This document shows, in pieces, positions 41,958 to 64,000 of a DNA stretch of 64,000 nt. The notes under the pieces were generated by a model, which was given only the letters and a program-made list of their open reading frames with translations, did no database searches and had not been told where the DNA came from. A program made the position numbers and the translations under genes. Location: the NCBI RefSeq assembly GCF_053078305.1, contig NZ_CP166879.1, one strand, 5' to 3'. The stretch's first letter is position 1. The number at the start of each line of letters is the position of its first letter.

Positions 41958-41985
41958 TGAACCGCCCCGGAAATCCTGGAGACAT

Positions 41986-42211: not shown

Positions 42212-42538
42212 TTATTTTTTCCAGGGGCGGTCGAACTCCGCCTTCGCAAAATAAGTGGAAGCCTGGCGAAGGATATCGTTACTGCGGCTCAGTTCACGAT
42301 TTTCACGTTCCAGCTCTTTCAGACGCTGACGTTCAGTGGTGGTGAAACCACCATCACCGCCCCCAATATCCTGCTCATGCTGGAGTACCCAGACGTGCAG
42401 AGTCTCCGGTGTACAGCCAATCTTAGGGGCAATAGAACAAATTGCTGTCCATTGTGAGTCATATTCGCCCTGACTTTCCAGAACCATACGAACTGCCCGT
42501 TGACGGACTTCGGGGGAAAAACGTGTATTTTTAGTCAT
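42212..42538 (-). CDS. IS629 OrfA
   Basis: 108-aa ORF MTKNTRFSPEVRQRAVRMV... recognised as IS629/IS1203 OrfA. Confidence 0.85.
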   Translation of the reverse strand: MTKNTRFSPEVRQRAVRMVLESQGEYDSQWTAICSIAPKIGCTPETLHVWVLQHEQDIGGGDGGFTTTERQRLKELERENRELSRSNDILRQASTYFAKAEFDRPWKK

Positions 42539-42752: not shown

Positions 42753-44300
42753 CTACTTGCGTAGCGATAAAATTGCCCGTGCGGTTTCAGCACGGTTATA
42801 GATCTGCATTTTTTTTATTGCAGCATCCACATCTTCACCGCTTTTCTTATTCAGTTTAATCAGAAACTCAACAGGTAATAGCGAAGCTAAATTTTCAAAT
42901 TTTGATTCAGACCAAGTAATGGTTGCAACAGCCCCTTCAGTTCTCTTAATCATTAGTTTTTTAAGTAATTCTAAACGCTCTGGCTCAACAGTTATATAAC
43001 CAATCGGCAGGGTTAATGCACTATCAGAATTAGGTTGACCGTGGTATTGCACCAAAGCAATCACATCAGGAATTAAGAGGATCTCCAAACGATCAAATTT
43101 AGCCTCTGAAGTAAGGCCAATACCGGTAGGAAAACGACCTAAGTGCCGCTTACGCTCTTGACGTTTTTCACCTTCATCTGCACTTGAGTGTAAAAGCGAA
43201 ATGCGAGCAATCTTATCATCGGCATAATTGCCAAGTATATCGCCTAGAGCGCGAGTAAAACGCGAAAGTTGACTACCATTAGCTCCCCACAGTGGTACTT
43301 TACTGCTATACCACAGCGCTTTTGGAGCTGTTTTACCTATATAATCACGTAATGCATTATGCAACATACTAATGAACAGCTTAGAATTGTGCGGCAAATA
43401 AACAGCCCCTAACATGCCGGTAGTCAATGAAGTACCGTAGCCAGTTTTACGTTGTTCACGAGCCTCTATCCAGCCGGAATAGTTGAACTTATAACCATTA
43501 GCAAATTGTAACAACACTTTATCATTTGCTAGTTTACAGAAATCTTCACAGTCGATACCGAATTCATCTAGTTTATGTTCTCCCAAAAAATCTGCGATAT
43601 GAGCTTCCAGCTCGTTTGAAAGCGGCAGCCGGGTGTTACCTAAATATTCATAGGAACGAGTAAATTTCTGCGGCTCAATGCTCCCAGCAGAAACACCGTA
43701 GCTAACCTCTATCTCTATTGGGAGCTGCACCATCTCATGCGAACTACAGCCCATTATCTTATATAATTTAGTCCGTTGACGCTCATACTCGCTGTTGCGG
43801 CTGAGCAAAAGATGGTGCCGAAACTGGGAACTAAAAGCCTCTGTTACCGCAGCAGCATCTCCCCCGATCTGATGCCGCGGCAATAGCTCTGGCAGTCCAG
43901 AAGTAAAACGACGATTTGGTTGCGGTTTACATATCGAAAGAGTTAGTAGATCGAATGCAACTTCCTCCGTACATTCTTGATATTTAACTAAACTTGGCTT
44001 CCCACCATTATTAGCTGCATGCTTACGTAGGAATGAGCTAGCCTCAATATGCCCATCAGGATTAATGTTGATCAGTCTGTTAGCCAGCAACCCATCAAGC
44101 AATACCTCTCGCTCACGATCAGTTAGACCAAAGTAATTCTGTAACTCGCTGGGATAGAGTTGATCAAAAATCAGCAGCAAGCGACATGCAAACTGTTCAA
44201 TTCCAGGCATCAGTTTTTCAGTGGTCAAAGCGCAGTTGATCTTGTAACTACGCGCAGGTAGTAAAACGGTAATCAGATTACCCAGACGTGGTTCTGACAT
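42753..44300 (-). CDS. Hypothetical 515-aa protein, translationally coupled partner of the NERD-kinase-helicase gene
   Basis: Long ORF with start ATG overlapping upstream TAA (TAATG); no recognisable motif by eye. Confidence 0.8.
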   Translation of the reverse strand: MSEPRLGNLITVLLPARSYKINCALTTEKLMPGIEQFACRLLLIFDQLYPSELQNYFGLTDREREVLLDGLLANRLININPDGHIEASSFLRKHAANNGGKPSLVKYQECTEEVAFDLLTLSICKPQPNRRFTSGLPELLPRHQIGGDAAAVTEAFSSQFRHHLLLSRNSEYERQRTKLYKIMGCSSHEMVQLPIEIEVSYGVSAGSIEPQKFTRSYEYLGNTRLPLSNELEAHIADFLGEHKLDEFGIDCEDFCKLANDKVLLQFANGYKFNYSGWIEAREQRKTGYGTSLTTGMLGAVYLPHNSKLFISMLHNALRDYIGKTAPKALWYSSKVPLWGANGSQLSRFTRALGDILGNYADDKIARISLLHSSADEGEKRQERKRHLGRFPTGIGLTSEAKFDRLEILLIPDVIALVQYHGQPNSDSALTLPIGYITVEPERLELLKKLMIKRTEGAVATITWSESKFENLASLLPVEFLIKLNKKSGEDVDAAIKKMQIYNRAETARAILSLRK

Positions 44301-49725: not shown

Positions 49726-50353
49726 CTATTCGTTATAGTGTTCGAACGCCTCCGCAAGGTTTTTTACTGCCGTTAACACGTCCGGTTTAGGTATGATACT
49801 GATGTAATCGCTCTTCATCGTTTTCACGAACCGTTCTCTCATTCCATTACTCTGAGGGCTACTGACTGCCGTCGTGCAGAGCTCCAGATTCAACTCTCTG
49901 GCGAACTGCCGTGTTTCATGAGTTGTATAAGCCGAACCGTTATCGGTCAGCCACTGGATGGGCCATCCCGGTCTATCGCCAAAGCGTTTTTCTATCGCTC
50001 CTGACATGACATCCTGCACCGTTGCTTTGCCATAACCTCCCGTGCTTGCGGCCCAGTCTATGGATTCAAGATCGCAACAGTCCAGTGCGAACGTGACACG
50101 CAGTTTTTCGTCATCATCACAACCGAACTCAAAGCCATCGGCACACCAGCGCGGGTCGCTTTCCTTCACCGATATTCGGGCCTTTATGTTCCCTCTGCGG
50201 TCGTGAAGGTTTGTCATGTAATAACAACAGGTTATTCTCGCTCATTATTCGATAAACGCGATTTGCATTCACGAACTGCAGTCCTTCGTTAAGACTGCCG
50301 TCTGAGAATAGCCCAGACACGACGATAGCCATCGAATCGCTGAACAGCGTCAT
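49726..50353 (-). pseudogene. IS2-like (IS3 family) transposase OrfB remnant, frameshifted
   Basis: ORFs 49726-50217 and 50129-50353 together resemble IS2 InsD (NANRVYRIM..., [34 protein letters not shown]) in two frames. Confidence 0.6.
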
Positions 50354-50459
50354 TCGGCAGGCGATAAAGAAGGTGTCGTTACGGGGAAGTCATCTTCACA
50401 GAGATTTTCAGTCAGTTAGCATTACCGACATTCATTCACCAACTTACCGGAGATAATCA

Positions 50460-50789
50460 ATGTCAAAACCCCGATGGACCATTGAACAGAAAAGGCAGCA
50501 CGTTGCTGCCTGGCGCGCCAGTGGTCTTACACGTCAGCAATACTGTGAACTCAACGATATTCCCTTCACATCACTTCGCGAATGGCCGCAGGATGTCGCA
50601 AAAGCTGAACGCCGGGCAAATGAACCGACCGTTCTTCCCGTTCATATTGCGCCACCACTGCATGCTGATGTACCACAGCCCGTCACGAATGAGCCAGTCA
50701 CGCTCTTCCTTCCCGGCGGAGTACGGATGTGCTGTCAGCCGTCACAACTTACCGATGTCTTCAGGGCGCTCAAATATGCTCAGTCCTGA
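50460..50789 (+). CDS. IS66-family TnpA (orf1) of outer element
   Basis: 109-aa ORF followed by overlapping tnpB and tnpC in the canonical IS66 order. Confidence 0.7.
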   Translation: MSKPRWTIEQKRQHVAAWRASGLTRQQYCELNDIPFTSLREWPQDVAKAERRANEPTVLPVHIAPPLHADVPQPVTNEPVTLFLPGGVRMCCQPSQLTDVFRALKYAQS

Positions 50790-51168
50790 TAATGTCTTCA
50801 TCGCGATTAAACCTGTTGACATGCGCCGGGGCATCGACACACTGACGCAGTATATACAGGATGAACTCCGGTCGACATGGCATGAGGGAGCCGCCTTCGT
50901 CTTTGTTAACAAAGTCCGTTCGCGTATCAAAGTTCTCCGGTGGGATAAACACGGGGTGTGGTTGTGTACCCGCCGTCTGCACAAAGGCAGCTTCCGCTGG
51001 CCACGTGCAAATGATGCTGCCTGGCACCTCACTCCCGACGAGTTTAACTGGCTGATTGCCGGTGTTGACTGGCAGCAGGTTAAGGGACATGACCTGACGA
51101 AATGGGGCTGGCAGAATGAACCTGAACTGCGCCCTGAAAACACGCAAAATACACTGCTAACTCAGTGA
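50776..51168 (+). CDS. IS66-family TnpB (orf2) of outer element
   Basis: ORF 50482-51168; start set at MLSPDNVFIAIKPVDMRRG, paralogous to the TnpB at 52940-53290. Confidence 0.7.
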   Translation: MLSPDNVFIAIKPVDMRRGIDTLTQYIQDELRSTWHEGAAFVFVNKVRSRIKVLRWDKHGVWLCTRRLHKGSFRWPRANDAAWHLTPDEFNWLIAGVDWQQVKGHDLTKWGWQNEPELRPENTQNTLLTQ

Positions 51169-51174
51169 AAAATA

Positions 51175-51265
51175 ATGAATATCCGTATCCGGAGTGGTAT
51201 ACTCCCCTGTATGGATATCTCCGCTCTCAACACCACGAATGACATCGAAAAACTGCGTGCTATGG
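51175..51265 (+). pseudogene. IS66-family tnpC of outer element, 5' part (interrupted by nested IS66 insertion)
   Basis: ATG at 51175; reading frame continues exactly across the insertion into 53807-55320 when one copy of the 8-bp duplication is removed. Confidence 0.7.
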
Positions 51266-51295
51266 GTAAGCGTCAACGGAGCACCGTATTGACGC

Positions 51296-52909
51296 TTATT
51301 TATTGGTGAGTACTACGTTCCATGGCAGGAGTTCATCAACTCGGTTGGAAGGCCATTCTGGCAGTACGCTCAGGATATGGCGCAGATACGCTTCCGGATC
51401 GATACCGTTCAGACGGCAGGTGCCGATCAGCCCGTACAACAGTGCTCCACGCTCGCCGCCGTGATCGCTGCCAAAGAACATAAAGTTTTTCTTTCCGAGA
51501 CAGACTGCACGAAGCGCTCTTTCCGCAGCATTATTATCCGCCTCCGCCAGACCGTCATCACTGTAATAACAGAGGGCATCCCACTGATTCAGTACATAGC
51601 TGAACGCTTCGCCCAGTCTGGATTTTTTCGACAGCGTACCATTCTTCTCCACCATCCATTCATGCAGTGACGTCAGTAACACTTTGCTTCGCTGCTGCCT
51701 GACGGCAAGACGCTCTGACTCCGGTAATCCCCGTATTTCATCCTCGATGGCGTACAGTTCACTGATTCGCTTCAGGGCTTCTTCTGCCGTCGCACTTTTG
51801 CTGCTGATGTATACATCGTGGATTTTTCGCCGGGCATGGGCCCAGCACGCAACTTCTGTCAGTGCACCACCTTCACGTTCTGCACTGAACAGCCGATCGT
51901 AACCGCTGAACGCATCCGCCTGCAGGATACCCCGGAAGGGACGAAGGTGTTGTACCGGATGTTTTCCCTGCCTGTCTGGTGAGTAGGCGAACCAGACCGC
52001 CGGTGGCTCTGATGAGCCCGCATTCCGGTCATCCCGGACATACGTCCAGATGCGTCCTGTTTTTGCCTTTTTTCTGCCCGCTGCCAGCACTTTTACTGGT
52101 GTGTCGTCAGTGTGAACCTTGCGGGTGTTCATCACGTAACGGTACAGGGTATCATTCAGCAGAGTCATTAACTGACAACATGCGTCAACCCAGTTGGAGA
52201 GTAATGCCCGGCTCAGTTCGATGCCCTGGCGGGCAAAGATTTCACTCTGACGATACAGTGGCAGGTGTTCGCAGTATTTTCCCGTTAACACGCGGGCAAG
52301 TAATCCGGAGCCCGCGATGCCGCGCTCTATCGGGCGGGACGGCGCTGGCGCTTCAACTATACAGTCACATTTTGTACAGGCTTTTTTTACCCGAACAGTG
52401 CGGATCACTTTCAGGGCGCTACTCACCAGTTCCAGCTGCTCAGCACTGACTTCCCCCAGATAATCCAGCTCACTGCCACACTCCGGGCAACAACTTTCTT
52501 CAGGCTCCAGACGGTGTATTTCACGGGGAAGATGTGCCGGTAACGGACGACGATGACGTGACTGTCGCAACTGGCGGGGAACCTGCGGGTCATCCTCACG
52601 CCCACTGTAACGATCGCTTTCCTGTTCGCGTTGTTTCAGTTGGGCCTCAGCCTGTTCAACCTCACGCTGCAGTTTTTCAGAACGGGTACCGAACAACATC
52701 CGGCGCAGTTTTTCTATCTGGGCCCTCAGATGTTCTATTTCCCGCTCCTCCTCTTCGATCTTTTCCTCGGCACGTGCCAGTGCAGAGCGCAGGAAGGCCT
52801 CCGTCTCTTCAACCAGACTCAGTTGCTGATCTTTCTGACGGAGGGCTTCAGCCTGCTCAGAGAGCAGCCTTTCCAGCTCAGTGATACGAATGAGGTATTT
52901 CCGACTCAT
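51296..52909 (-). CDS. IS66-family transposase TnpC
   Basis: 537-aa ORF with N-terminal coiled-coil, CPECG zinc-finger-like motif and DDE region. Confidence 0.9.
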   Translation of the reverse strand: MSRKYLIRITELERLLSEQAEALRQKDQQLSLVEETEAFLRSALARAEEKIEEEEREIEHLRAQIEKLRRMLFGTRSEKLQREVEQAEAQLKQREQESDRYSGREDDPQVPRQLRQSRHRRPLPAHLPREIHRLEPEESCCPECGSELDYLGEVSAEQLELVSSALKVIRTVRVKKACTKCDCIVEAPAPSRPIERGIAGSGLLARVLTGKYCEHLPLYRQSEIFARQGIELSRALLSNWVDACCQLMTLLNDTLYRYVMNTRKVHTDDTPVKVLAAGRKKAKTGRIWTYVRDDRNAGSSEPPAVWFAYSPDRQGKHPVQHLRPFRGILQADAFSGYDRLFSAEREGGALTEVACWAHARRKIHDVYISSKSATAEEALKRISELYAIEDEIRGLPESERLAVRQQRSKVLLTSLHEWMVEKNGTLSKKSRLGEAFSYVLNQWDALCYYSDDGLAEADNNAAERALRAVCLGKKNFMFFGSDHGGERGALLYGLIGTCRLNGIDPEAYLRHILSVLPEWPSNRVDELLPWNVVLTNK

Positions 52910-52939
52910 GACCGTTTTTATAATCCGGCCATGACATTT

Positions 52940-53290
52940 TTACAACATTGTCAGTGCATTAAGGCGGGATGTTTTGGGCTGACGCCAGTCCAGTTTATCG
53001 AGGAGCATTGCCAGCTGCGAGCGGGTAATGGATACCTTACCGTCACGCACCGCAGGCCAGATAAACTGGCCTTCCTCCAGACGTTTGGTGAACAGGCACA
53101 GACCATCAGCATCAGCCCACAGAATTTTAATCGTGTCACCCCGTCGGCCGCGAAAGATAAACAGGTGACCGGAGAAGGGGTTCTCATCCAGCACATGTTG
53201 TACCTGTTCTCCCAGACCGTTGAAGGATTTACGCATATCAGTAACGCCGGCAACCAGCCAGATTCGAGTGCCTGATGGGAGCGAGATCAT
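52940..53290 (-). CDS. IS66-family TnpB (orf2)
   Basis: 116-aa ORF MISLPSGTRIWLVAGVTDMRKSFNGL..., typical IS66 orf2. Confidence 0.88.
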   Translation of the reverse strand: MISLPSGTRIWLVAGVTDMRKSFNGLGEQVQHVLDENPFSGHLFIFRGRRGDTIKILWADADGLCLFTKRLEEGQFIWPAVRDGKVSITRSQLAMLLDKLDWRQPKTSRLNALTML

Positions 53291-53712
53291 CGTCCCCTCC
53301 CGGTCAGTTCACGGATCAACACCGTGAGCAGCTCTGGTGAAGGATTTTCCAGCGTCATGTTACCGTGGCGGAACTCAACTTTACAGGAACTGGCACTGAC
53401 TGTGCTTTGTGAAGGAGTGGATAAAAGCGGAGTAAGAGCCGCCACAGGCTCTTTCTGCTCATCAGGCGTTATCTCAACAGGTAATAATTCAACGCCAGCG
53501 CCAGAAGAGGTTGTTACCGGAAGACGCCGCGATATACGCCCTTCGTTCTGCCAGAGCCTGAGCCATTTGAACAGGAGGTTATCATTGATATCGTGTTCCC
53601 GGGCAATACGGGCAACAGAGGCTCCTGGTTGTGAAGCCAGTTTAACCATTTGAAGTTTAAACTCATTTGAAAATGATCTGCGGGGTTCTGAGGATAATAT
53701 TTTCTGTTCCAT
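53287..53712 (-). CDS. IS66-family TnpA (orf1)
   Basis: 141-aa ORF overlapping tnpB start by 4 nt. Confidence 0.85.
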   Translation of the reverse strand: MEQKILSSEPRRSFSNEFKLQMVKLASQPGASVARIAREHDINDNLLFKWLRLWQNEGRISRRLPVTTSSGAGVELLPVEITPDEQKEPVAALTPLLSTPSQSTVSASSCKVEFRHGNMTLENPSPELLTVLIRELTGRGR

Positions 53713-53798
53713 AACAGGTGTCCACTAGTTGAAAAGGTGGGCACCTACGTTACCAATACTGGCTTAATGGCTACATACGGCGGTCAGTTTACGCTTAC

Positions 53799-55320
53799 TG
53801 CTATGGCACTTACCATGGTACAAAAAGTCATGTCGGAGAATGCCGAAAAAGAGCGGGAATTACTGGAGAAAAGCCGGCGCATCCAGCTTCTGGAAGAAAT
53901 GCTGAAACTGGTTCGTCAACAGCGCTTCGGTAAAAAATGTGAAACGCTGGCTGGTATGCAACGCTCCCTGTTCGAAGAGGATGTTGATGTCGATATCGCC
54001 GCGCTTACCGCACATCTGGATAAACTGCTCCCGCAATCCCCTGAAGAAGACGAAAAAGCGTCCCGTTCACGCCCGATACGCAAACCCTTACCGGCTCATC
54101 TTCCACGGGTGGAAAAAATTATCCAGCCGGACACTGACCATTGCCCTGAATGTGACGAGCCGCTGCACTATATCCGTGATGCGGTGAGTGAAAAGCTGGA
54201 GTATATTCCCGTTCACTTCGTGGTGAACCGTTATGTCCGTCCGCAATACAGTTGTCCCTGTTGCCAGAAGGTGTTCAGCGGTGAAATGCCGGCACATATC
54301 CTCCCGAAAAGTGCCGTTGAGCCATCAGTCATCGCACAGGTGATCATCAATAAATACGGTGACCACCTGCCTCTGTATCGCCAGCAGCACATTTTCTCCC
54401 GAATGGGGGTGGAGCTCCCCGTCAGTACAATGGCGGATAGGGTCGGTGTTGCTGGCGCTGCACTGGCCCCGCTGGCAAAATTGTTACGCCACGAGCTTCT
54501 GACACGGGATGTTATTCATGCCGATGAAACGTCCCTGAGGCTCCCTGATACCCGGAAAGGCGGTAAATCCTGCTCCGGCTGGCTGTGGGCTTACGTCAGC
54601 GGAGAAAGAAGCAGTCCGCCGGTCGTCTGTTTTGACTCGCAGACCGGACGGGCCCTCAGATATCCTGAGGCCTGGCTGCAGGGCTGGTGTGGCGGTACGC
54701 TGGTGAGTGACGGATACAGCGTGTACAAATCTCTGGCGGATAATGACCCCGGTATTACATCTGCCTGTTGCTGGAGCCACGCAAGGCGCGGTTTCGCAAA
54801 TCTGTATAAGGCCAGCAGGGAGCCCCGTGCAGCCATGGCGCTGAGAAAAATCGCGGGTCTTTATCGCATTGAGAAGTTCATCCGTGAACGTCCTGTGGAA
54901 AAAATACGGCAATGGCGACAACGGTATTCCCGGCCGATAGTGAATGACCTGTTTGCCTGGCCTGAAGAGCAGGAGCCGTGCTGTCCGCCCGACGGACCAC
55001 TAAACAAAGCGATTAATTATATCCTGAACCGGCGCGATGAACTGAGCTGCTTCCTGAGTGACGGAGCCGTGCCCCTGGACAACAATATCTGCGAGCGTGC
55101 TATCCGCCCGGTCGTTATGGGACGAAAGGCCTGGTTGTTCGCCGGTTCACTGATGGCCGGAAACCGCGCGGCACAGATAATGAGCCTTCTGGAAACGGCA
55201 AAACGTAATGGTCTGGAGCCACATGCCTGGCTGACAGACGTCCTGGCGCGTCTGCCGGAATGGCCAGAGGAGCGACTGGCAGAGTTGCTGCCTCTTGAGG
55301 GATTTACCTTCTCCGGGTGA
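53799..55320 (+). pseudogene. IS66-family tnpC of outer element, 3' part
   Basis: ORF 53737-55320 in frame with 51175-51265 across the nested insertion; CPECDEP zinc-finger-like motif and DDE region. Confidence 0.75.
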
Positions 55321-55921
55321 GTGATACCTGCCGTCAGGTGTTCGTGCACCGGGCCATAACCTGCAGTCGGGAGTTGAACTCCTGACGACAGGAAATGAGC
55401 CAGACCAGCAACCACACGGGCTGACAGCGAATAAGAACCTGAATCAGCCCGGAGTCATTCCCGGGTCAGTACATCATCACCTGCCATTAATCCCCGAGTC
55501 AGTACTTCGCGGCCTGACGCGATCACCCTACTCAGTACTTCAGAGCCCGCCTCCGGTACCTGCCTGGCGATCGCCCCTGTGCAACAAAATAAATCAACCG
55601 TTATCAGACCACGATCGTTCGTATGCGCCGCCGATGACGCGCGCCTGAAAAACGCGTCAATATGAGTTCCCCGGAAGCTTACGGAAAAGTTGAAGATCAT
55701 GCTGTTTATTTTCATCTGTATTGTCACCAGTCAGCATATGCCCCGGTCCCCGATTAGGTTGCGTGTTTTCATGGAAGGAGAGCGCCCAATAACCTCTATT
55801 GAGATTGGAGTTACTCACCGATCACTTCCACAGTAATACGCACATTACCATCATTCCTGATGGCATTGACCAGGAACATAACTACCAATAAAAATTCCCC
55901 AAAGTTGAAGTTACCGTAAGC

Positions 55922-56197
55922 CTATTTTTTATCTTCTTTTCTTTCTTGTAACTTTGCTTTTATCCAAATACCAATCCCTGCTAACATACCAGCCCCTCCC
56001 CCCACCTTTAAAGAATAAATAATATCTGCCCTCCAATCAAAAAATAAAACTTGAGTTTTAGAAAAAACTATCAGTCTACCAAGAATAGTACCTAACATTG
56101 CCATAAAAAAGATGCAAGCTATGCAGCGCATTATTAGTATGATAAGAATGTAAAAGTTGACACTCTTATTTATTTTTAATGGATTTATCAGCTTCAT
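55922..56197 (-). CDS. cdiI: Putative CdiI immunity protein (small polytopic membrane protein)
   Basis: 91-aa hydrophobic ORF immediately downstream of and overlapping the cdiA 3' end; start may be an internal Met. Confidence 0.6.
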   Translation of the reverse strand: MKLINPLKINKSVNFYILIILIMRCIACIFFMAMLGTILGRLIVFSKTQVLFFDWRADIIYSLKVGGGAGMLAGIGIWIKAKLQERKEDKK

Positions 56198-59100
56198 CTA
56201 GTGTTCCTTTTGTTACATTCCCGATAGCTTCACCAGTAATTGTTCCCCCAATATTACCAATAATATCAGATGTTCCCTCTTTGACAGTAGAGCCCATTGA
56301 CCCCGAGATGACTTTCCCTATACCGCCACCAAATACTGAACCTAATCCTGTCCCAATAACTGAATTTGTCGGATCCTCGCCTTTAATACTACTACCAATT
56401 GCCGCGCCGCTCATGTTGATAGGAGTTGAGACGATGATGCCTTTACCGGTTGTAGCTGCAGCTGTCACCCCAGCCATTATCGCATCCACATAACTGAAAG
56501 GACCTTTTCCAGCAAGCTGAGCAGCTGAGTTTACGCTGATACCAATTGCTGCATTAGTCGCCATACCTTTCACTGTTAACCCCAGTACGCTTCCTCCAAA
56601 CAACAAAGGAGCATCACCAATACTTGCATTAGATTTATGATACCCCCAGGTATTCATAATGCTTTGAGCCTTTGCCATTGCTTCAGTATCAGGGTTACGT
56701 TTTATATAGTCCTGTCCTGACAGTAACCCGGTAACAAGCTCCTGTGCCACCGCTGTACCGTACTCCTTTTCCATTTCTGAAGCATATACACGCAAGTAAG
56801 CTGCCAGTTCAGCACGTTCTGCGCTGTTTAATTGTGAAGGATCTTTATTAAATTTGGATACCAGAGCATCACTACGTTTATCTGCATTTTCCAGCTTAAT
56901 CAGCTCATTAGCAGTGGCTAATGTCTTATCGCCGTTCCTGATTTTCTCAATGGCTTTATCCAGTTTGTCAGAAGATGTCGCTCCCAGAAAGTTATTCTCA
57001 ACAGTCGTCTTACCTGACTGTGCGCCGGCTACCGCTGAAGCCCCCGAGTTGCCCACCAGACCACCGGCCAGGCCGGCAGCAACCGTTGCCAGTGTCGAGA
57101 CCGTCTGCTTCTCTGTCTCGCTCAGTTCACTCACCGGCTTACCGTACATCTGTGTGGCTATCATTCCCACCACCTCGCCGGTGGCAGCCCCTGCGGCACC
57201 GGCAAGGGCATTATTTCCCTGTGCCACCGCCAGCGCGGCATTCACAACCGCATGGGCGGCCACACGCCCCGCACCGTCCGGGGTGTTATTTTTGATTATT
57301 TCTGCAATGTACGGCGCAGCACCACCTGCCAGGGCTGCACTCAGATTACCACCGGCCAGTCCCTGTACCGCTGCCGTTGCAGCCTGTATCGCCTGCTGGT
57401 ATTTGCCTCCCGTTCCAAAACCGGAGGCTGCCATACCGTTATTGTAGGCCCGCTGTGCCACATCCTGTTCCGTGAACGGTTTTCCTGCTGCCTCAAGCTC
57501 CGCACGGGCCTGATTCAGTGCTGCCGGGTCCCGCTTCGCTTTCTCACCGGCTATCTGTCCTTCCGTTCTGGCAATATCTGCCACCTGGTTACCAATCTCA
57601 CCAATGAGTTGCGCCTGCTGCAGTCGCTGCTGCTCTTTTTCCCTGTCAAAGATGGGGGACAGCGTCTGATTTGCATGTGCTGCGTCACGGTTCAGGTCTG
57701 CCACATCCTGTTTCTGGCTCTGCGTATCCCGGATGGTGATATTCCCGGCAGACACTGCCGACTGCGTGGTACTGTCCGCATGGCCTTCATGATTTGCACC
57801 GACCAGCAGATTGTTTGCCATGTTCCCCAGGAAATTTCCAGCAACACTGCCACCGGTACTGAGCCCTGTACTCTGATGTTCCGTTTTAAAGTCGGCCCGG
57901 TTTTCAATGTCACTGAAGCCCAGTGTGCCGGTATCCAGCCTGTTTTTATCTGCCGTTGCCGTGGACGCAATCACCGCACCGTTCAGTTGCGTATGCTGTC
58001 CGGTGGTGACATCAAACCCGCCCCTGCCGGCAAAAATCCCCGTCTGCTCCTGTACACTGTCGTAGTTACTGTGCATTTTATCCCGGCTGAGGTTCACACT
58101 CGCCGAACCGCTCATGGACCCGAAAATGAAGCTGCCTCCGGCGCTGGCATTCTGCTGCTTACTGTCATAACGGTCACTGTCCTGCTCACTGGTCAGTGTC
58201 AGATGACGACCGGCATCCACTTTCACCGTTTCACCGCCAGCCTGCGCGCCGGTAAGCGTGGTGTCCCGCCCGCTGATAATGGTCAGCCGGTTTCCCGCAT
58301 CCACCGTGGTTTCTGTATGGGTGGTACCGTTGCCTTTTTCACTGCCCTTACCCTGGTTTGCGCTGGCTGAAACACTGATACCCCAGCCTCCGGAGCCCAC
58401 ACCAACACCGACACCCACGCTGCCACCACTGGATGTGTTCTTTCCTTCCAGCTTTGACGTGTTTTCTGCTGATACCAGATTCACGTCACGGTTTGCCTGC
58501 AGCAGAACGTTGTTCCCGGCCTTTATCTGACTGCCCTGTATCGTCAGGTCACCATCCACGCCCTTCACGCCGGAGCCGGTGGCCTGAATACTGAGGTTAT
58601 TACCTGCGGTCAGTGTACTGCCCTTCGCCACCGTCTGCTCTGACTGCTGTTCTGATTTCGAAGACTGGCTGCCGTAAGAGAGGCTGATGCCCACCGTGTT
58701 ATTATTTCCGGCATCGGCTCCCTGCGCGTCTGCCAGTCGTCCGGCCTGCACGGCCTGAGCCCCCGAGAGCGCGGCCTTCACCCCCTGCAGGGCTTCAAGC
58801 CGGCTGTTTCCGGCAGATTTCGCCGCCTGTACGGTCTCCACCGTCGTATTCAGGGCGCTGCCCGCTGTGCCGGACAGGGCAAGCGTCAGACCGGAGGTTT
58901 TCTGCTCCACCGTATGTGTCTGTACATGCTGGTCTGTGGCGGCGGTAATGCTGACCTCCTTACCGCTGAGTGCCATGTCCCTGCCGGCAATCAGGTCAGA
59001 GCCGTTGACGGTCAACCGGTTACCTGCCTGAAGGGAAACATCACCGTGAACACTCCCCACCGTGCTGCCTTTCTGTGTGGTGTCTGTTGCGGTGTCCGTG

Positions 59101-62100
59101 ACTTTCAGACTCTGGCTGCCCATGCTGAATCCCACACCTCCGGAGCTCATCAGCCCAGATTTTTTCTCCTGTTTCAGGTGTGTTTCACGGTTGCTTTCTG
59201 TCAGCGTGCCGATACTCAGGTCATTTCCGGCAGCCAGGGAGACACGGTTATCCCCGGCCACACTGCTGCCCGTGACGTTCAGATTATGTCCGGCACTGAT
59301 ACTGACCGTATCCCCGTTCAGTTCACTGCCCGTCATGGTCCGGCGGTCAGTGACATCATGCGTGGTTGTGGTGGTTTTCGATAACATCCCGCTGCTGCCG
59401 GTCACTTTATGGTATTCATCCAGCGAGCGGGTATTCTGTGCACCGGTCAGCGTCACGTCATGACCTGCCATCAGGGCCAGGCCTTTCTGAGCTGACAGCG
59501 ATGCCGCCTGTGACGTCATATCCCGTCCGGCGGTCAGCGTGACATCACCGTTACCGGCAAGCGTGCTGCCCGTACTCTGTGTGACGCCCTGCGACAGACG
59601 ATTATTTTTATCCCAGATAATATTGTCCTGCGCGGAAGTGGTCACAGTGGAAAGCGTCATATCCCTGCCCGCACTGAGTTGCGTCAGGCTGTCCTTACCC
59701 TGATTCACCACCGTTGCAGCCGTCAGATTCATATCCCGTCCGGCCTGCAGCACCAGTCTTCCCTGGTCGTTCTGCACATACACGCCGGCCACACTGTCGA
59801 TACTGGTACGTTCAAAATGGTTCTGTCCGGCGTCGCGCTGTGCCGTACGGGTGGTGGTGGTCAGACTGATATCCCGTCCGGCCATCGCCAGCAGGCTGTC
59901 CGTGGCCTGCAGCAGCCCGCCGGTACTGTTAATATCCGTCCGGGCCGTCAGGCTGACATTTGCTCCCTGAATGGAGCCGGCCTGGTTGTGAATGTTTTCT
60001 GCACTGAGCTGCACGGTCTGCTTCCCGGCCAGTTTACCGCTGTTAAACAGGTCACCATCCAGCTTCATCACCATGTCCCTGCCGGCAATCAGCGCACCGG
60101 CGCTGTTCACATCACCGGGTTTTACACGGGCATACACCTGAGGTACCTGAACCGTCTGCGTGCTGCCGTCCGGCAGTGTCACCGTGGTGTTAACCAGCCA
60201 GACAATATCACCGGTCAGTAACGCCATCTGCTCAGCAGTCAGCGCCACACCTGGTGTCAGGTTGTATTGCTTACCAAATGCAATACCCGCATCCATTAAC
60301 GCCTTAAACTGCTCTTCATCATTACTGTATCCGTCCAGGTACCGTTGCCCGGTCAGAGCGACAACCTGCTCACGAATCAGACGCTGTTCGTAAAAACCAT
60401 CCCCCAGGCGTTTGAGCATGTTATCCCCGTTCTGAGAAAACGCCTTCTGCATGTAATCACTGCCCAGCCACGTCTTCTGGTTCGTAAAACGCGGGTCCGT
60501 TTCAACCAGATATGGCACATTCACTGCCGGGTTTGTTTTAAACAGGCTGCTGTCCGGCAGACGGGTATCCGGCCCGGCAACATGGATACTGCCCTGAGGT
60601 GCGCTGACTTCAAACTGCTGCCCCGGCAACAGAATGACCGGTTCACCGGCAGACACCACCGGGCGAAGCGGTATCCGGTCAGTAGCGGCTACTGCCGCAT
60701 CCACATTTCCGGCCTGTCCTGTCTGTACATCCGTTCCCTGTGGCTTCAGAGGAGAAAGCGTGACCTGGCTGCCCTGAATCTGTCCGTGGCTGGTGAGCTC
60801 TCCCGGCTTCAGCGTAATGCTCTGAATTACAGTGGGCGGAGTGTACTGAGAGGTTTTCTCCCCCTGCTTATCCTTTCCTTTTTTCCTGATACGGTAATAA
60901 TACGTGGATGTTCCTGAGTCCGTAACATGCCGCTCGCCACTGACACTGACATTTTCCACGCTTCCTGACGGAATGGTCAGCAGGCCGCCTGCAACAACCT
61001 GACTCTTATCATTAAGCAGTTTGTCTGCCACAATCGTCATGCCGGCACCGGACAGAATTTTTCCCGGGTCGGAGTCTTTTACCCGGGTTTCTTCCACGGT
61101 ACGGGTGTAATCATACTGCGTGAATTTATCTCTGGCGCCTTCCGGTGTATGCAGTTTTTTCAGTGAGTTACTGGAATCGTTATCCACATAAACGCCCGGT
61201 TCACCGGCGCTCCAGCGTTTATCTGAGCCGCTGAGCTGATACTCAGTCACCTTTTCCGTGGAAACCACCACGCGCTCCGTGGTGAAATGGTCATTGACGT
61301 TATTGATTTGTCCGGCACTCAGTACCAGATATCCGGCGGCTTCAATAGTGGCACTGTGATTATTCAGTACACCGGCTTTCCCCGTGGCGGCACCATTCGC
61401 ATCCAGCATGCCACCAGTATGCATATCACCTGCACTGTAAATCAGGCTGTGCGTCCGGTTATTCAGGGTCTGTACCCCTAAGTCCACACGCTCACGCCCG
61501 GCCAGCGTCGCCGCCACGCCATTTTCTTCCAGATTATTAAATGTGGCAGCGCTGACACCAACAGCATCGCCGTAGATTCGCCCGGTACCGGAATTCGTCA
61601 GGGTGTTCGCCTGAAGATGCGTATATTTCCCGTCAATCAGCCCACGGTTCAGCAGTGTGTCCGTCACGTTAAGCCAGGTCTGCCCGGCACTGATTTCACC
61701 TTTCTCTGTGTTTTCAAGGCGGATGCTGTTCAGGTCAAGCCGGCTGCCTGCCAGCAGGCTGCCGGTATTAGAGACATCGCCATTAACGGAAAGCGTAAGG
61801 TTTCCGTTCGCAATAGTCTGACCACTGTTGCTGAACGTTGTGTTACTTTTCAGCGTCATATCGCCCAGCGAAAGCAGTTTCCCGTCACCACCGAGCTGAC
61901 CGGCATCCACAGATACTGACTGCCCGGCCTTAACCACGCCGTCACGGTTCGAAAACGCCAGCTGACGGCCACTGACAGACAATGTCGCGCCGGAAGAGAG
62001 GACGCCGTCATTATTACTGAGCGTCCTGTCTGCCATAACCGTAAGCGCCCTGTCTGCCAGAATACTGCCCTCCTGGTTATCAAGGTCCTGCGTCGTGATG

Positions 62101-64000
62101 TGTATTGTCTGCGCTTCCAGCCCCTGACCGGTATTCTGCGTGTGGCGATTGATAAACTGCAGGGCGTTCAGCGTAATGGCGGAACCACTGCGAATCAGAC
62201 CAGAGACGTTGTCCACAACGCCCCGTACACTGTTGAGCAACATGTCGCCCACAGACTGTATTTGTCCGTGGCTGTTCTGCAGACCTCCCGTATGCAGACG
62301 GAGTTCACCTTCACTGACCAGCCGGCCCCCCTCACGGTTATCCAGCGAGGTGGTGCTCAGGTCAGCTGTCGTTTTCGCCCCCACGGTCCCGCCCCGGTTA
62401 TCCATTGCTCCGGTACTGACAGTCAGTTCCTGCAGGCTGTTCAGCGTACCGCGTCTGTTATCCAGCGTCTGGCCTGCGGTATTAATGCTGATACCCCTCC
62501 CCTGAATAAGACCGGACTGATTGTTCAGCGCCTGGCTGTTCCAGCCGAGCAGACCGTTTGCCACCATCTGACCGGATGTATTGTTAACCACGCCTGCAGT
62601 CAGGGACAGAGCATCTCCCGACAAAAGCACACCGGCAGTGCTGTCCAGTGTGCCGGCATTCAGCGTCATCGGACCCTGACTGATAACCCCGCCCCGGTCA
62701 CCACTATTACGGTTACTCAGTGTGTCAGCACGGAGATTCAGCGATGCACCGCTCTGTATCAGGCCGCCGGCATCGTTGATGATATCCGTCGAGGAAAGTG
62801 TCAGTGACTGCTGTGCCACCAGTCTGCCGCCCTGATTATCAAACCGTGTGACATCCAGCCTGCTGTTACCGTTGCTGACCACCGTCCCCTGCTGATTTTC
62901 CAGCACACTCAGGTGCGTATTCAGGTCCCCGCCGGCGGCAAGCGCCCCTTCCTGATTACTGACATCACCACCACTCAGCAACATATCCGTCCCGGCCTTC
63001 AGTGCGCCTTTCTGGTTCATCAGCGTACCTGACGATATCTGTAATGACGTCTGACTCCCCAGCACGCCCTGACGGTTATCGAGCGTTCCGGCGTTCAGGG
63101 TCATATCCTTCTGACCCGCCATAAATCCCTGCTGGTTATTCAGCATACCGGCCCGCACTGTCAGGGTACCGGCGCTGCTGATACCACCCCGTGTTTTCGT
63201 GTTCCGGTTACTGAGTACCCCGTCCTGTACATCCAGCGTCATGTCACTGCCGGACTGAATCAGACCATCATCAGAGACCAGTTCGCTGCCTGACACAGAC
63301 AGCGTTTTCTGTGAAAGCAGTCTGCCGGACGTATTATCCAGCGCACCATCCAGCGTCACAGACAGCCCGTCAGCCACCACCGTACCCTGGTGGTTATTCA
63401 GATTCCCTGCCGAAATATCCAGCCTGCCGGCGGACTCCATTCGTCCCTCAGTATTGCTGACAGCCTGCTGTGTTTTTATCCTGCCCGTTCCGGCAGCAGC
63501 TGAAATCAGTCCGTTGTCGTTATTCAGCGCCTGTGTATTAATCAGGATGTCACGGCTGGCAAGCAGACGTCCCTGCTGGTTATCCACGGCGCCGGTTGTC
63601 CTCACCTGCAGACTGCCTGACTGCGCCGCCTGCACTTTCCCCCTGCGATTATCAAGGCTCAGTGCATCCAGACGCACCGCGCCATTTGCCGCAAACAGCC
63701 CTTCCCGGTTATCCACGCTTCCCGGCAGACTCAGCGAAAAATCCCCTGTTCCCGTCTGAGTCAGACTGCCTTTACGATTTGACAGGCTTTGTGCCGATAT
63801 CTGCAGTGTGTCGGCATTTATCGTGCCACCATTATTGCTGAAGTGCCCGACAGTCCGGGCGGAAAGCGTACCGGCACTCAGTTGCGCATTCTGTGTGGAC
63901 AGATTTCCACTGGTTGCATCCAGCTCAGTATGTTGTCCCTGTATCCGGCTGTTGCTTAAATCCAGCCCCTGCCCCTTCAGTTGCATGTCCCCACCGGACA
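56166..64000 (-). CDS. cdiA: CdiA contact-dependent inhibition exoprotein (two-partner secretion), 5'-partial; N-terminus lies beyond window end
   Basis: 2606+ aa ORF with filamentous-haemagglutinin-type repeats, VENN motif about 274 residues from the C-terminus, Gly-rich C-terminal toxin domain. Confidence 0.88.
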   Translation of the reverse strand, partial: SGGDMQLKGQGLDLSNSRIQGQHTELDATSGNLSTQNAQLSAGTLSARTVGHFSNNGGTINADTLQISAQSLSNRKGSLTQTGTGDFSLSLPGSVDNREGLFAANGAVRLDALSLDNRRGKVQAAQSGSLQVRTTGAVDNQQGRLLASRDILINTQALNNDNGLISAAAGTGRIKTQQAVSNTEGRMESAGRLDISAGNLNNHQGTVVADGLSVTLDGALDNTSGRLLSQKTLSVSGSELVSDDGLIQSGSDMTLDVQDGVLSNRNTKTRGGISSAGTLTVRAGMLNNQQGFMAGQKDMTLNAGTLDNRQGVLGSQTSLQISSGTLMNQKGALKAGTDMLLSGGDVSNQEGALAAGGDLNTHLSVLENQQGTVVSNGNSRLDVTRFDNQGGRLVAQQSLTLSSTDIINDAGGLIQSGASLNLRADTLSNRNSGDRGGVISQGPMTLNAGTLDSTAGVLLSGDALSLTAGVVNNTSGQMVANGLLGWNSQALNNQSGLIQGRGISINTAGQTLDNRRGTLNSLQELTVSTGAMDNRGGTVGAKTTADLSTTSLDNREGGRLVSEGELRLHTGGLQNSHGQIQSVGDMLLNSVRGVVDNVSGLIRSGSAITLNALQFINRHTQNTGQGLEAQTIHITTQDLDNQEGSILADRALTVMADRTLSNNDGVLSSGATLSVSGRQLAFSNRDGVVKAGQSVSVDAGQLGGDGKLLSLGDMTLKSNTTFSNSGQTIANGNLTLSVNGDVSNTGSLLAGSRLDLNSIRLENTEKGEISAGQTWLNVTDTLLNRGLIDGKYTHLQANTLTNSGTGRIYGDAVGVSAATFNNLEENGVAATLAGRERVDLGVQTLNNRTHSLIYSAGDMHTGGMLDANGAATGKAGVLNNHSATIEAAGYLVLSAGQINNVNDHFTTERVVVSTEKVTEYQLSGSDKRWSAGEPGVYVDNDSSNSLKKLHTPEGARDKFTQYDYTRTVEETRVKDSDPGKILSGAGMTIVADKLLNDKSQVVAGGLLTIPSGSVENVSVSGERHVTDSGTSTYYYRIRKKGKDKQGEKTSQYTPPTVIQSITLKPGELTSHGQIQGSQVTLSPLKPQGTDVQTGQAGNVDAAVAATDRIPLRPVVSAGEPVILLPGQQFEVSAPQGSIHVAGPDTRLPDSSLFKTNPAVNVPYLVETDPRFTNQKTWLGSDYMQKAFSQNGDNMLKRLGDGFYEQRLIREQVVALTGQRYLDGYSNDEEQFKALMDAGIAFGKQYNLTPGVALTAEQMALLTGDIVWLVNTTVTLPDGSTQTVQVPQVYARVKPGDVNSAGALIAGRDMVMKLDGDLFNSGKLAGKQTVQLSAENIHNQAGSIQGANVSLTARTDINSTGGLLQATDSLLAMAGRDISLTTTTRTAQRDAGQNHFERTSIDSVAGVYVQNDQGRLVLQAGRDMNLTAATVVNQGKDSLTQLSAGRDMTLSTVTTSAQDNIIWDKNNRLSQGVTQSTGSTLAGNGDVTLTAGRDMTSQAASLSAQKGLALMAGHDVTLTGAQNTRSLDEYHKVTGSSGMLSKTTTTTHDVTDRRTMTGSELNGDTVSISAGHNLNVTGSSVAGDNRVSLAAGNDLSIGTLTESNRETHLKQEKKSGLMSSGGVGFSMGSQSLKVTDTATDTTQKGSTVGSVHGDVSLQAGNRLTVNGSDLIAGRDMALSGKEVSITAATDQHVQTHTVEQKTSGLTLALSGTAGSALNTTVETVQAAKSAGNSRLEALQGVKAALSGAQAVQAGRLADAQGADAGNNNTVGISLSYGSQSSKSEQQSEQTVAKGSTLTAGNNLSIQATGSGVKGVDGDLTIQGSQIKAGNNVLLQANRDVNLVSAENTSKLEGKNTSSGGSVGVGVGVGSGGWGISVSASANQGKGSEKGNGTTHTETTVDAGNRLTIISGRDTTLTGAQAGGETVKVDAGRHLTLTSEQDSDRYDSKQQNASAGGSFIFGSMSGSASVNLSRDKMHSNYDSVQEQTGIFAGRGGFDVTTGQHTQLNGAVIASTATADKNRLDTGTLGFSDIENRADFKTEHQSTGLSTGGSVAGNFLGNMANNLLVGANHEGHADSTTQSAVSAGNITIRDTQSQKQDVADLNRDAAHANQTLSPIFDREKEQQRLQQAQLIGEIGNQVADIARTEGQIAGEKAKRDPAALNQARAELEAAGKPFTEQDVAQRAYNNGMAASGFGTGGKYQQAIQAATAAVQGLAGGNLSAALAGGAAPYIAEIIKNNTPDGAGRVAAHAVVNAALAVAQGNNALAGAAGAATGEVVGMIATQMYGKPVSELSETEKQTVSTLATVAAGLAGGLVGNSGASAVAGAQSGKTTVENNFLGATSSDKLDKAIEKIRNGDKTLATANELIKLENADKRSDALVSKFNKDPSQLNSAERAELAAYLRVYASEMEKEYGTAVAQELVTGLLSGQDYIKRNPDTEAMAKAQSIMNTWGYHKSNASIGDAPLLFGGSVLGLTVKGMATNAAIGISVNSAAQLAGKGPFSYVDAIMAGVTAAATTGKGIIVSTPINMSGAAIGSSIKGEDPTNSVIGTGLGSVFGGGIGKVISGSMGSTVKEGTSDIIGNIGGTITGEAIGNVTKGTLDEADKSIKNK

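What the first reader, a model, noticed from the sequence alone, without database searches (positions are those of the whole stretch)
55922..57002. CdiA C-terminal toxin looks like a glycine-zipper membrane-active (ionophore-type) domain with a small membrane immunity protein
After the VENN motif the ~274-residue CdiA-CT is rich in GxxxG/AxxxG repeats (GISVNSAAQLAGKG, GTGLGSVFGGGIGKVISGS), and the downstream 91-aa ORF is a small polytopic membrane protein overlapping the cdiA end. This matches the EC93-type arrangement in which a pore-forming CdiA-CT is neutralised by an inner-membrane CdiI, rather than a nuclease CT with a cytosolic immunity protein.
Basis: partly seen in the sequence, partly recalled or inferred. 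Interest (0 to 1): 0.55.

Follow-up and report, generated by a model that had tools for sequence, protein, structure and literature searches.

The report
Known SecY-dependent CDI ionophore toxin pair
The end of this E. coli cdiA gene encodes a membrane-depolarising toxin and its small membrane immunity protein.

Summary
A cdiA gene on the minus strand has one VENN motif (57002-56991). It is followed by a 274-residue CT and a 91-codon ORF (55922-56197) that overlaps the cdiA end by 32 nt.

The CT has two parts. Residues 1-120 form a helical entry domain. Residues 121-274 form a glycine-rich (19.5% Gly) domain predicted as five long helices.

The CT and the ORF are 98% identical to the module directly upstream of the annotated CdiA-o11 in O157:H7 genomes. 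Published cloning primers for EC869 cdiI-o10 match that module exactly and match the window with one mismatch each.

CdiA-CTo10(EC869) has been shown to depolarise target cells, to depend on SecY, and to be blocked by its two-helix membrane immunity protein CdiIo10 (PMC7858069). It belongs to group 2 of the CDI alpha-helical ionophores (PMC11630599).

Against EC93, only the ionophore domain aligns (29% identity). This alignment includes the conserved G-x3-G-x3-G zipper. The entry domains are unrelated, so this is the same toxin family as EC93 but the SecY group, not the EC93/AcrB group.

No nuclease, deaminase, colicin or Ntox25 signature was found.

Verdict: interpretation supported, already known, low interest. 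Here the toxin sits on a long, in-frame CdiA rather than as an orphan.

The parts
56166..64000 (-). cdiA, 3' portion. The frame is open from the window edge (2,611 codons) to the stop at 56166-56168. The N-terminus and cdiB lie outside the window.
   Evidence: Translation without stops. The gene body is 98-99% identical to 'hemagglutinin repeat-containing protein' genes of E. coli Rb-3, D10 and others. It is 32% identical to EC93 CdiA over its length.
56982..57134 (-). Pre-toxin PT-VENN domain (Pfam PF04829), ending in the VENN motif at 56991-57002.
   Evidence: Pfam hit with E 3.2e-20. There is a single VENN in the protein.
56631..56990 (-). CdiA-CT residues 1-120: helical entry domain of the SecY-dependent (group 2) type.
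   Evidence: AF2 predicts helices with pLDDT ~70-78. Residues 1-162 are identical to the O157:H7 o10 module and residues 1-120 to the ETEC1716 group-2 CT. There is no similarity to the EC93 entry region. SecY dependence of the o10 toxin comes from PMC7858069.
56169..56630 (-). CdiA-CT residues 121-274: glycine-rich alpha-helical ionophore domain.
   Evidence: 29% identity to the EC93 ionophore domain. The representative search found 87 clusters with E<=1e-3, and among the full-length matches listed the domain lies at or within a few residues of the C-terminus. AF2 with a diverse alignment gives five long helices, at CT residues 135-160, 167-180, 185-203, 207-232 and 238-272, with mean pLDDT 57.
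56316..56354 (-). Glycine zipper G213-x3-G217-x3-G221-x3-G225 in predicted helix alpha4.
   Evidence: G217, G221 and G225 align with EC93 G168/G172/G176, the family's only shared motif according to PMC11630599. G221 is invariant and G217 >=90% conserved in alignment A2. There is a weak Pfam Gly-zipper_Omp hit over CT residues 195-228 (E 0.031).
56220..56258 (-). Second zipper G245-x3-G249-x3-G253-x3-G257 in predicted helix alpha5.
   Evidence: Motif scan. G249 is >=90% conserved in A1 and A2.
55922..56197 (-). cdiI: 91-aa membrane immunity protein, the o10 type. Its start overlaps the cdiA end by 32 nt.
   Evidence: ORF. 97.8% identical to the O157:H7 and E62 ORF. The published EC869 cdiI-o10 primers define the same start and stop. 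45 homologues share a conserved N-terminus. There are two hydrophobic segments. 28% identity to EC93 CdiI.
56204..56209 (-). Shine-Dalgarno-like AAGGAA, 6 nt upstream of the cdiI ATG and inside the cdiA coding sequence.
   Evidence: Sequence read directly.

Best explanation
This is the toxin-immunity end of an E. coli contact-dependent growth inhibition (CDI) locus. It carries a group 2 (SecY-dependent) alpha-helical ionophore toxin and its cognate membrane immunity protein. The pair is an allele of CdiA-CTo10/CdiIo10 of E. coli O157:H7 EC869.

Proposed mechanism:
1. CdiA on the inhibitor cell surface binds a neighbouring E. coli cell. The region after VENN is transferred to the target periplasm and cleaved off. 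This is established for CDI and was shown for o10; it is inferred here.
2. CT residues ~1-120, the helical entry domain, engage the SecY translocon, assisted by PpiD/YfgM. This step was shown genetically for o10. It is inferred here from 100% identity of residues 1-162.
3. CT residues ~121-274 insert into the inner membrane as a bundle of five long, Gly/Ala/Ser/Thr-rich helices. Helix alpha4 carries the conserved G-x3-G-x3-G zipper. The helix content is predicted here at low confidence. The bundle comes from the AF2-multimer models in PMC11630599.
4. The inserted domain dissipates the membrane potential and arrests growth. This was shown for o10 by DiBAC4(3) staining.
5. The 91-aa CdiI is a two-helix inner-membrane hairpin with both ends in the cytoplasm. 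Its gene is translated from a start inside the cdiA end. It binds the variable helices (alpha1, alpha4, alpha5) of its own toxin within the membrane and blocks it. Protection was shown for CdiIo10. The binding mode is predicted only.

Specificity is pair-wise. A second group-2 toxin in E. coli ETEC1716 has the same entry domain and the same alpha1-alpha3. It is only 41% identical over alpha4-alpha5, and its CdiI is only 33% identical.
For: Anatomy: VENN, a 274-aa CT and the overlapping 91-aa ORF with a Shine-Dalgarno sequence.

Identity with the characterised pair:
- 98.1% DNA identity to a module found in 35 complete E. coli genomes, including many O157:H7.
- In FRIK944 the module lies immediately upstream of the genes annotated CdiA-o11/CdiI-o11.
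- At protein level there are four substitutions in the CT after VENN (G163D, M172I, T250S, A267V) and two in CdiI (M23T, E88D).
- The cdiI-o10 cloning primers CH2362 and CH2363 from PMC11630599 S4 Table match FRIK944 exactly at the ORF's start and stop. Each matches the window with one mismatch.

Experimental basis:
- PMC7858069 shows that CdiA-CTo10(EC869) depolarises about 97% of target cells, that CdiIo10 protects, and that secY(S281F) confers resistance but gives no protection against CT-EC93.
- PMC11630599 defines the family, its six groups and group 2 = SecY. It also describes 72-100-aa two-helix CdiI proteins and the glycine zipper as the only shared motif.

Family tests done here:
- The ionophore domain is 29% identical to EC93's over 175 aa, with the zippers aligned. 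The CdiI proteins are 28% identical.
- 87 representative clusters match. Among the full-length matches listed, the domain lies at or within a few residues of the C-terminus.
- G221 and G182 are invariant across the diverse alignment.
- AF2 predicts five long helices.
- Comparison with ETEC1716 shows cassette-like polymorphism.
Against: - No experiment was done on this allele. It differs from the tested one at six residues. G163 replaces the D found in most relatives (consensus KDPFSY), and T250S lies in helix alpha5, one of the helices predicted to contact CdiI.
- The AF2 models are weak. The ionophore domain has pLDDT ~25 within the full CT and 57 alone. The five-helix bundle is therefore not independently confirmed, and no solved structure exists.
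- The second hydrophobic segment of CdiI is only moderately hydrophobic.
- The cdiA N-terminus and cdiB are outside the window, so deployment cannot be verified.
- The identity of the FRIK944 module with strain EC869's o10 rests on synteny with o11 and the primer matches. The EC869 record itself was not compared.
Confidence: 0.92

Rival explanations
1. It is an EC93-type (group 1) ionophore in the strict sense. It would use AcrB as its inner-membrane receptor, as the reader's comparison with EC93 implies.
For: The ionophore domain and CdiI are homologous to those of EC93. The gene arrangement is the same, with a small hydrophobic cdiI overlapping the cdiA end.
Against: Similarity to EC93 begins only around CT residue 103. 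The first ~100 residues, which form the entry domain, give no alignment. That domain is identical to the one in the o10 toxin. Resistance to o10 maps to secY, and secY(S281F) gives no protection against CT-EC93 (PMC7858069; PMC11630599).
Confidence: 0.03
2. The CT is an enzymatic toxin (nuclease, deaminase or NADase), and the glycine richness is incidental. The small ORF would then be unrelated or spurious.
For: Most E. coli CdiA-CTs are nucleases (PMC11630599 Table 2). RefSeq labels even EC93 CdiA as a 'tRNA nuclease'.
Against: - Neither Pfam nor NCBIfam reports an enzymatic domain.
- There is no PDB sequence or fold match.
- The domain is predicted all-helical, hydrophobic and Gly-rich.
- The ORF is conserved across genera and hydrophobic, unlike cytosolic immunity proteins.
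- The near-identical toxin depolarises cells, whereas a tRNase control does not.
Confidence: 0.01
3. It is a different kind of pore former. Candidates are a colicin-type 10-helix pore domain that inserts without a receptor, or an Ntox25/Tse4-like beta-barrel ionophore.
For: These toxins give the same phenotype (depolarisation) and also have membrane immunity proteins. Tse4 was once described as a glycine-zipper protein.
Against: - There is no Pfam hit to the colicin pore domain or to Ntox25.
- The prediction is five helices, not ten helices or a beta-barrel.
- Sequence homology is to the EC93 alpha-helical ionophore.
- The o10 toxin is receptor (SecY)-dependent.
Confidence: 0.02
4. The module is intact in sequence but is not deployed in this strain. 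The locus would be a relic, for example with cdiB or the cdiA 5' end disrupted outside the window, much as the same module is a silent orphan in O157:H7.
For: In most complete genomes that carry it, the module is an orphan without a cdiA body. In E62 the cdiA body is split into several ORFs. IS66 elements lie immediately downstream in the window. The 5' end of cdiA is not visible.
Against: Within the window, 2,611 codons of cdiA are uninterrupted and continuous with the CT. The body is 98-99% identical to cdiA genes in many genomes. cdiI retains its Shine-Dalgarno sequence and full length.
Confidence: 0.12

Closest known systems
CdiA-CTo10 / CdiIo10 of E. coli O157:H7 EC869 (Jones et al. 2021, PMC7858069). 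This is group 2 of the type 10 alpha-helical CDI ionophores (Halvorsen et al. 2024, PMC11630599).
   Same: The CT is the same length (274 aa after VENN), and so is CdiI (91 aa). Protein identity is about 98%, with CT residues 1-162 identical. The cdiI start and stop are those used for the published expression clone. Depolarising activity, SecY dependence and CdiI protection are therefore expected to be the same.
   Different: There are four CT substitutions (G163D, M172I, T250S, A267V) and two CdiI substitutions (M23T, E88D). Here the CT is fused to a long in-frame CdiA instead of being a promoter-less orphan. The DUF2569 gene and the o11 module that follow it in O157:H7 are absent.
Group-2 ionophore on the CdiA of E. 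coli ETEC1716 (NZ_CP122880, locus L005)
   Same: The entry domain is identical (1-120), helices alpha1-alpha3 are 97% identical (121-210), and the CT length is the same (274 aa).
   Different: Residues 211-274 (alpha4-alpha5) are only 41% identical. Its CdiI is 78 aa and 33% identical. It is presumably a separate immunity specificity.
CdiA-CT(EC93) / CdiI(EC93), the founding CDI ionophore (group 1, AcrB-dependent)
   Same: The ionophore domains are homologous (29% identity over 175 aa), with the G-x3-G-x3-G zipper aligned and a shared GKG..ST.IN..GA..GS..KGEDPT core. Both have a small hydrophobic CdiI (28% identity over 50 aa) whose gene overlaps the cdiA end.
   Different: The entry domain is unrelated and shorter (~57 against ~120 residues). 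The receptor is AcrB, not SecY. The CT is 224 aa against 274, and CdiI is 79 aa against 91. The CdiA bodies are only 32% identical.
CdiA-CT(GN05224) of Klebsiella aerogenes (an EndoU tRNase with a SecY-dependent entry domain)
   Same: According to PMC7858069 its entry domain is 36% identical to that of o10 and uses SecY/PpiD/YfgM.
   Different: Its cargo is a cytosolic RNase, not a membrane ionophore. This comparison was not made here; the sequence was not retrieved.
Pore-forming colicins (A, B, E1, Ia, K, N) and their membrane immunity proteins
   Same: They depolarise the inner membrane from the periplasmic side and are neutralised by a small integral-membrane immunity protein.
   Different: They form a 10-helix globular pore domain, insert without a receptor, are voltage-dependent, and are released as soluble proteins. 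There is no sequence or profile similarity.

Membership tests
CDI alpha-helical ionophore toxins (type 10; PMC11630599) | The toxin is the region after the VENN motif at the C-terminus of a CdiA (two-partner-secretion) protein. | tested here: met
   There is a single VENN, a PT-VENN Pfam hit (E 3.2e-20), and a 274-aa CT on a 2,611-codon haemagglutinin-repeat ORF.
CDI alpha-helical ionophore toxins (type 10; PMC11630599) | Sequence homology of the C-terminal domain to the CT-EC93 ionophore domain. | tested here: met
   BLASTP gives 29% identity over 175 aa, 60.8 bits, pairwise E 9e-16. The EC93 sequence was taken from pCP127.
CDI alpha-helical ionophore toxins (type 10; PMC11630599) | A conserved G-x3-G-x3-G zipper corresponding to EC93 G168/G172/G176 (helix alpha4). 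| tested here: met
   Window G217/G221/G225 align with EC93 G168/G172/G176. G221 is invariant and G217 >=90% conserved in the diverse alignment.
CDI alpha-helical ionophore toxins (type 10; PMC11630599) | Two alpha-helical domains, the C-terminal one being a five-helix membrane-spanning bundle. | tested here: inconclusive
   The entry domain is helical at pLDDT 70-78. The ionophore domain alone gives five long helices, but mean pLDDT is 57 and pTM 0.37, so helix packing is not reliable. No multimer modelling was available.
CDI alpha-helical ionophore toxins (type 10; PMC11630599) | A small (72-100 aa), very hydrophobic two-helix CdiI encoded immediately downstream. | tested here: met
   The ORF is 91 aa and overlaps the cdiA end. 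It has two hydrophobic segments flanked by Lys/Arg-rich termini. It is 28% identical to CdiI-EC93.
CDI alpha-helical ionophore toxins (type 10; PMC11630599) | Dissipates the membrane potential of target cells, and the cognate CdiI protects. | not testable with these tools
   This was shown experimentally for the ~98% identical EC869 o10 pair (PMC7858069; PMC11630599).
Group 2 ionophores (SecY-dependent entry domain) | An entry domain homologous to that of CdiA-CTo10(EC869). | tested here: met
   CT residues 1-162 are identical to the O157:H7 FRIK944 module upstream of o11. The paper's o10 primers match that module.
Group 2 ionophores (SecY-dependent entry domain) | Target resistance conferred by secY(S281F), with or without delta-ppiD / delta-yfgM. 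| not testable with these tools
   This is a genetic result for o10 only.
Group 1 ionophores (EC93 type, AcrB-dependent) | An entry domain homologous to the N-terminal ~57 residues of CT-EC93. | tested here: not met
   CT residues 1-102 give no alignment to EC93. Similarity starts at window residue 103 / EC93 residue 58.
Pore-forming colicin domain (Pfam PF01024) / Ntox25 (PF15530) | A profile match to the family model. | tested here: not met
   hmmscan against Pfam lists neither family for the CT or for any of the 39 aligned ionophore domains.
Pfam glycine-zipper families (PF13488 Gly-zipper_Omp, PF05433, PF13441) | A profile match above threshold. | tested here: inconclusive
   The window sequence gives E 0.031 over CT residues 195-228. 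Four of 39 family members reach E<=1e-3 for PF13488 and three of 39 for PF05433. This is a motif-level resemblance only.

The most novel reading that the evidence does not exclude
The six residue differences from the tested EC869 o10 pair might shift immunity specificity or conductance. The candidates are G163 in place of the usual Asp in the conserved K-D-P-F-S-Y loop, T250S in the CdiI-contacting helix alpha5, and M23T in CdiI TM1. If so, this would be a new cognate pair within group 2 rather than the same one. Because it is carried on a full-length CdiA, it could also be the 'live' donor from which the O157:H7 orphan was derived.
Probability: 0.05. Interest if true: 0.3.

Novelty: already known. 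Interest (0 to 1): 0.12.

Why it matters
The result matters mainly as a correct annotation. Public annotation calls these genes 'adhesin' or 'hypothetical protein', and in O157:H7 the cdiI ORF is truncated to 60 aa. They can now be named as a SecY-dependent CDI ionophore and its membrane immunity protein. This strain appears to carry the toxin on a long, in-frame CdiA, whereas in O157:H7 it is a silent orphan. That is a modest data point for how orphan toxin cassettes relate to expressed ones, and for strain-level self/non-self discrimination in E. coli. It opens no new question.

Tried and rejected
- **AF2 of the whole 274-aa CT.** I used a 96-sequence alignment whose members are all >=58% identical. 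The entry domain came out helical at pLDDT 70-78. The ionophore half had pLDDT ~25 and was unusable.
- **AF2 of the ionophore domain alone.** With 39 diverse sequences it gave five helices, but only at pLDDT 57.
- **Foldseek against the PDB.** Neither model gave a match below E=1, so no fold assignment can be made.
- **Profile search of PDB sequences.** Nothing was found.
- **NCBIfam.** There was no family for the CT or for CdiI.
- **Entry-domain search.** The aim was to find fusions of the entry domain to other toxins such as EndoU or deaminase, to show modularity. It returned only 32 hits, mostly short fragments, and none carried another toxin domain. It was uninformative, probably because of the word-index limit.
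- **tblastn against plasmids.** It found related group-2-like CTs in Rahnella and Enterobacter but not EC93. EC93 was obtained by accession instead (one search failed; one search succeeded with the NZ_ prefix).
- **GxxxG enrichment test.** The count does not exceed what composition gives. I therefore rejected 'rich in GxxxG repeats' as evidence in itself and relied on conservation of the zipper.
- **Enzymatic, colicin-like and Ntox25 readings.** All were considered and rejected (see rival explanations).
Full report
**What is in the sequence.** The minus strand carries an open reading frame that enters the window at 64000 and runs 2,611 codons to a stop at 56166-56168. It contains a single VENN motif, at 57002-56991, inside a Pfam PT-VENN pre-toxin domain (E 3.2e-20). 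The motif leaves a C-terminal region (CT) of exactly 274 residues, at 56990-56169.

A 91-codon ORF lies at 55922-56197 on the same strand. It begins 32 nt before the cdiA stop and has an AAGGAA Shine-Dalgarno sequence 6 nt upstream of its ATG. The coordinates and the description in the finding are therefore correct. The body of the gene is 98-99% identical to 'hemagglutinin repeat-containing protein' genes in many E. coli chromosomes, so the window is E. coli.

**Two domains, not one.** The first ~120 CT residues are Ala/Leu/Lys/Glu-rich with 5% Gly. The last 154 residues have 19.5% Gly plus much Ile, Ser, Ala and Thr, and positive hydropathy.

The raw count of G-x3-G pairs in the C-terminal part (8) is not above what its composition gives. 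The shuffle mean is 5.5, and 15% of shuffles reach 8. 'Many GxxxG' is therefore not evidence on its own.

The informative signal is conservation. I aligned 39 diverse relatives, 23-86% identical to the window, drawn from a search of 1.84 billion representative proteins. In that alignment G221 and G182 are invariant and G217 is at least 90% conserved. G217 and G221 sit in a G213-G217-G221-G225 zipper. A second zipper runs G245-G249-G253-G257. Pfam gives only a weak glycine-zipper hit for the window sequence (E 0.031), which reaches significance in 4 of the 39 relatives.

**Identity with a characterised pair.** Megablast of the CT plus ORF against 5,426 complete E. coli genomes found near-full-length matches in 35 genomes at about 98% identity. 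Many of these are O157:H7.

- In O157:H7 FRIK944 the module begins exactly at VENN. It has no cdiA body, so it is an orphan.
- There it lies immediately upstream of the genes that RefSeq names CdiA-o11 and CdiI-o11. That placement makes it 'orphan 10' of the EC869-type array.
- At protein level the window differs from it by four residues after VENN (G163D, M172I, T250S, A267V). CT residues 1-162 are identical.
- CdiI differs by two residues (M23T, E88D).
- The primers used by Halvorsen et al. to clone EC869 cdiI-o10 (S4 Table of PMC11630599) match FRIK944 exactly at the start and stop of this ORF. Each matches the window with one mismatch. The 91-codon reading frame is therefore the one that was tested experimentally.

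**What is known about that pair.** Jones et al. 2021 (PMC7858069) reported the following.

- CdiA-CTo10(EC869) depolarises about 97% of target cells in the DiBAC4(3) assay.
- Cells expressing CdiIo10, which has two predicted transmembrane helices, are protected.
- secY(S281F) blocks intoxication, and does so fully when combined with loss of PpiD or YfgM. It gives no protection against the EC93 toxin.

Halvorsen et al. 2024 (PMC11630599) placed o10 in group 2 (SecY) of six groups of alpha-helical CDI ionophores.

- All six groups are modelled as an N-terminal entry domain plus a C-terminal five-helix bundle.
- The glycine zipper in helix alpha4 is the only shared sequence motif.
- The CdiI proteins are 72-100-residue two-helix hairpins.
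- The family has no Pfam or NCBIfam designation. That agrees with my negative scans.

I took cdiA and cdiI of the cdi-1 locus from EC93 plasmid pCP127.

- The window CT aligns with CT-EC93 only from window residue 103 / EC93 residue 58 onward. Identity is 29% over 175 residues (60.8 bits).
- Window G217/G221/G225 fall on EC93 G168/G172/G176.
- The two share a GKG..ST.IN..GA..GS..KGEDPT core.
- The preceding entry regions do not align.
- The two CdiI proteins align at 28% over 50 residues, spanning the end of TM1, the loop and TM2.

So the toxin is homologous to EC93's ionophore but belongs to a different entry-domain group.

**Structure.**

- AF2 on the whole CT gave a helical entry domain (pLDDT 70-78) and an unusable ionophore half.
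- AF2 on the ionophore domain with the diverse alignment gave five long helices, at CT residues 135-160, 167-180, 185-203, 207-232 and 238-272. The two zippers fall in alpha4 and alpha5. Mean pLDDT was only 57.
- This agrees with the published five-helix description but does not confirm the packing.
- Foldseek and profile searches of the PDB returned nothing significant, and no nuclease or deaminase fold.

**The immunity gene is real and cognate-specific.** The ORF has 45 homologues in other Enterobacterales, mostly about 87-101 aa and 58-96% identical, with a conserved MKLINP start.

A second group-2 toxin sits on the CdiA of E. coli ETEC1716. Compared with the window it is 100% identical over CT 1-120 and 97% over 121-210. 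It is only 41% identical over 211-274, and its CdiI is 33% identical. This is the cassette-like polymorphism in alpha4/alpha5 and CdiI that the 2024 paper links to pair-wise immunity specificity.

**Context.**

- Among complete genomes, only strain E62 has the pre-VENN region, this CT and this cdiI contiguous. Its cdiA is annotated there as several separate ORFs.
- In the window the CT is continuous with a long intact frame, so it may be deployable. The cdiA start and cdiB lie outside the window.
- Homology to the O157:H7 array stops 242 bp past cdiI (at 55680). It resumes at what in O157:H7 lies beyond the o11 module. The DUF2569 gene and o11 are therefore absent here.
- IS66-family elements follow.

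**Verdict.** The system is already known and has been characterised experimentally at about 98% identity. The only open points are minor. One is whether the six substitutions matter. The other is whether this copy is expressed.

Noticed in passing
window 42753-49258 (-): Two adjacent ORFs (1,652 aa and 515 aa) match the Mokosh type I anti-phage defence proteins. MkoA scores 1305 bits, covering profile positions 2-1598 of 1607. MkoB has E 1.1e-61. They lie about 7 kb downstream of the CDI module, beyond the IS elements.
   Followed up: partly
window 49726-55680: A cluster of IS66-family elements lies directly downstream of cdiI. ORFs resembling the IS66 accessory proteins and TnpC transposases occur at 50460-50789, 51296-52909, 52940-53290, 53287-53712 and 53737-55320, and transposase-like fragments at 49726-50353. 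Homology to the O157:H7 orphan array ends at 55680. It resumes (55132-55665, 94%) at sequence that in O157:H7 follows the o11 module. The DUF2569 gene and the cdiA-o11/cdiI-o11 cassette are therefore missing here.
   Followed up: partly
L002 (E. coli O157:H7 FRIK944) 12900-13082 and 12254-12838: RefSeq annotates cdiI-o10 as a 60-aa 'hypothetical protein' starting at an internal Met, which removes most of TM1. It annotates the o10 CT as a 194-aa 'hypothetical protein'. In E62 the CT fragment is called 'adhesin'. The 91-aa frame is the one supported by conservation and by the published clone.
   Followed up: yes
L002 11420-11999: Immediately upstream of o10 in O157:H7 there is another fragment of an ionophore-type domain. 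It is 38% identical to window CT residues ~165-269. It is followed by an 84-aa ORF whose C-terminus resembles CdiI (…KIGCGVGGLLGSGLWLLAK…). This is apparently a second, truncated ionophore/immunity orphan.
   Followed up: no
L004 (EC93 pCP127) 32961-42359: RefSeq names the EC93 CdiA 'contact-dependent inhibition effector tRNA nuclease', although its CT is the founding ionophore. The product name is evidently propagated from the conserved CdiA body.
   Followed up: no
L005 (E. coli ETEC1716) 1-4479; window 56353-57900: Many complete E. coli genomes carry a full-length CdiA whose CT matches the window at ~95% DNA identity only up to CT residue ~212. After that it switches to a different alpha4-alpha5 segment and a different 78-aa CdiI. 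This marks a sharp recombination-like boundary inside the ionophore domain.
   Followed up: yes
window 56502-56504 (CT residue G163): The window has Gly where the O157:H7 allele and most homologues have Asp, in the conserved K-D-P-F-S-Y loop between predicted helices alpha1 and alpha2. The significance is unknown.
   Followed up: no
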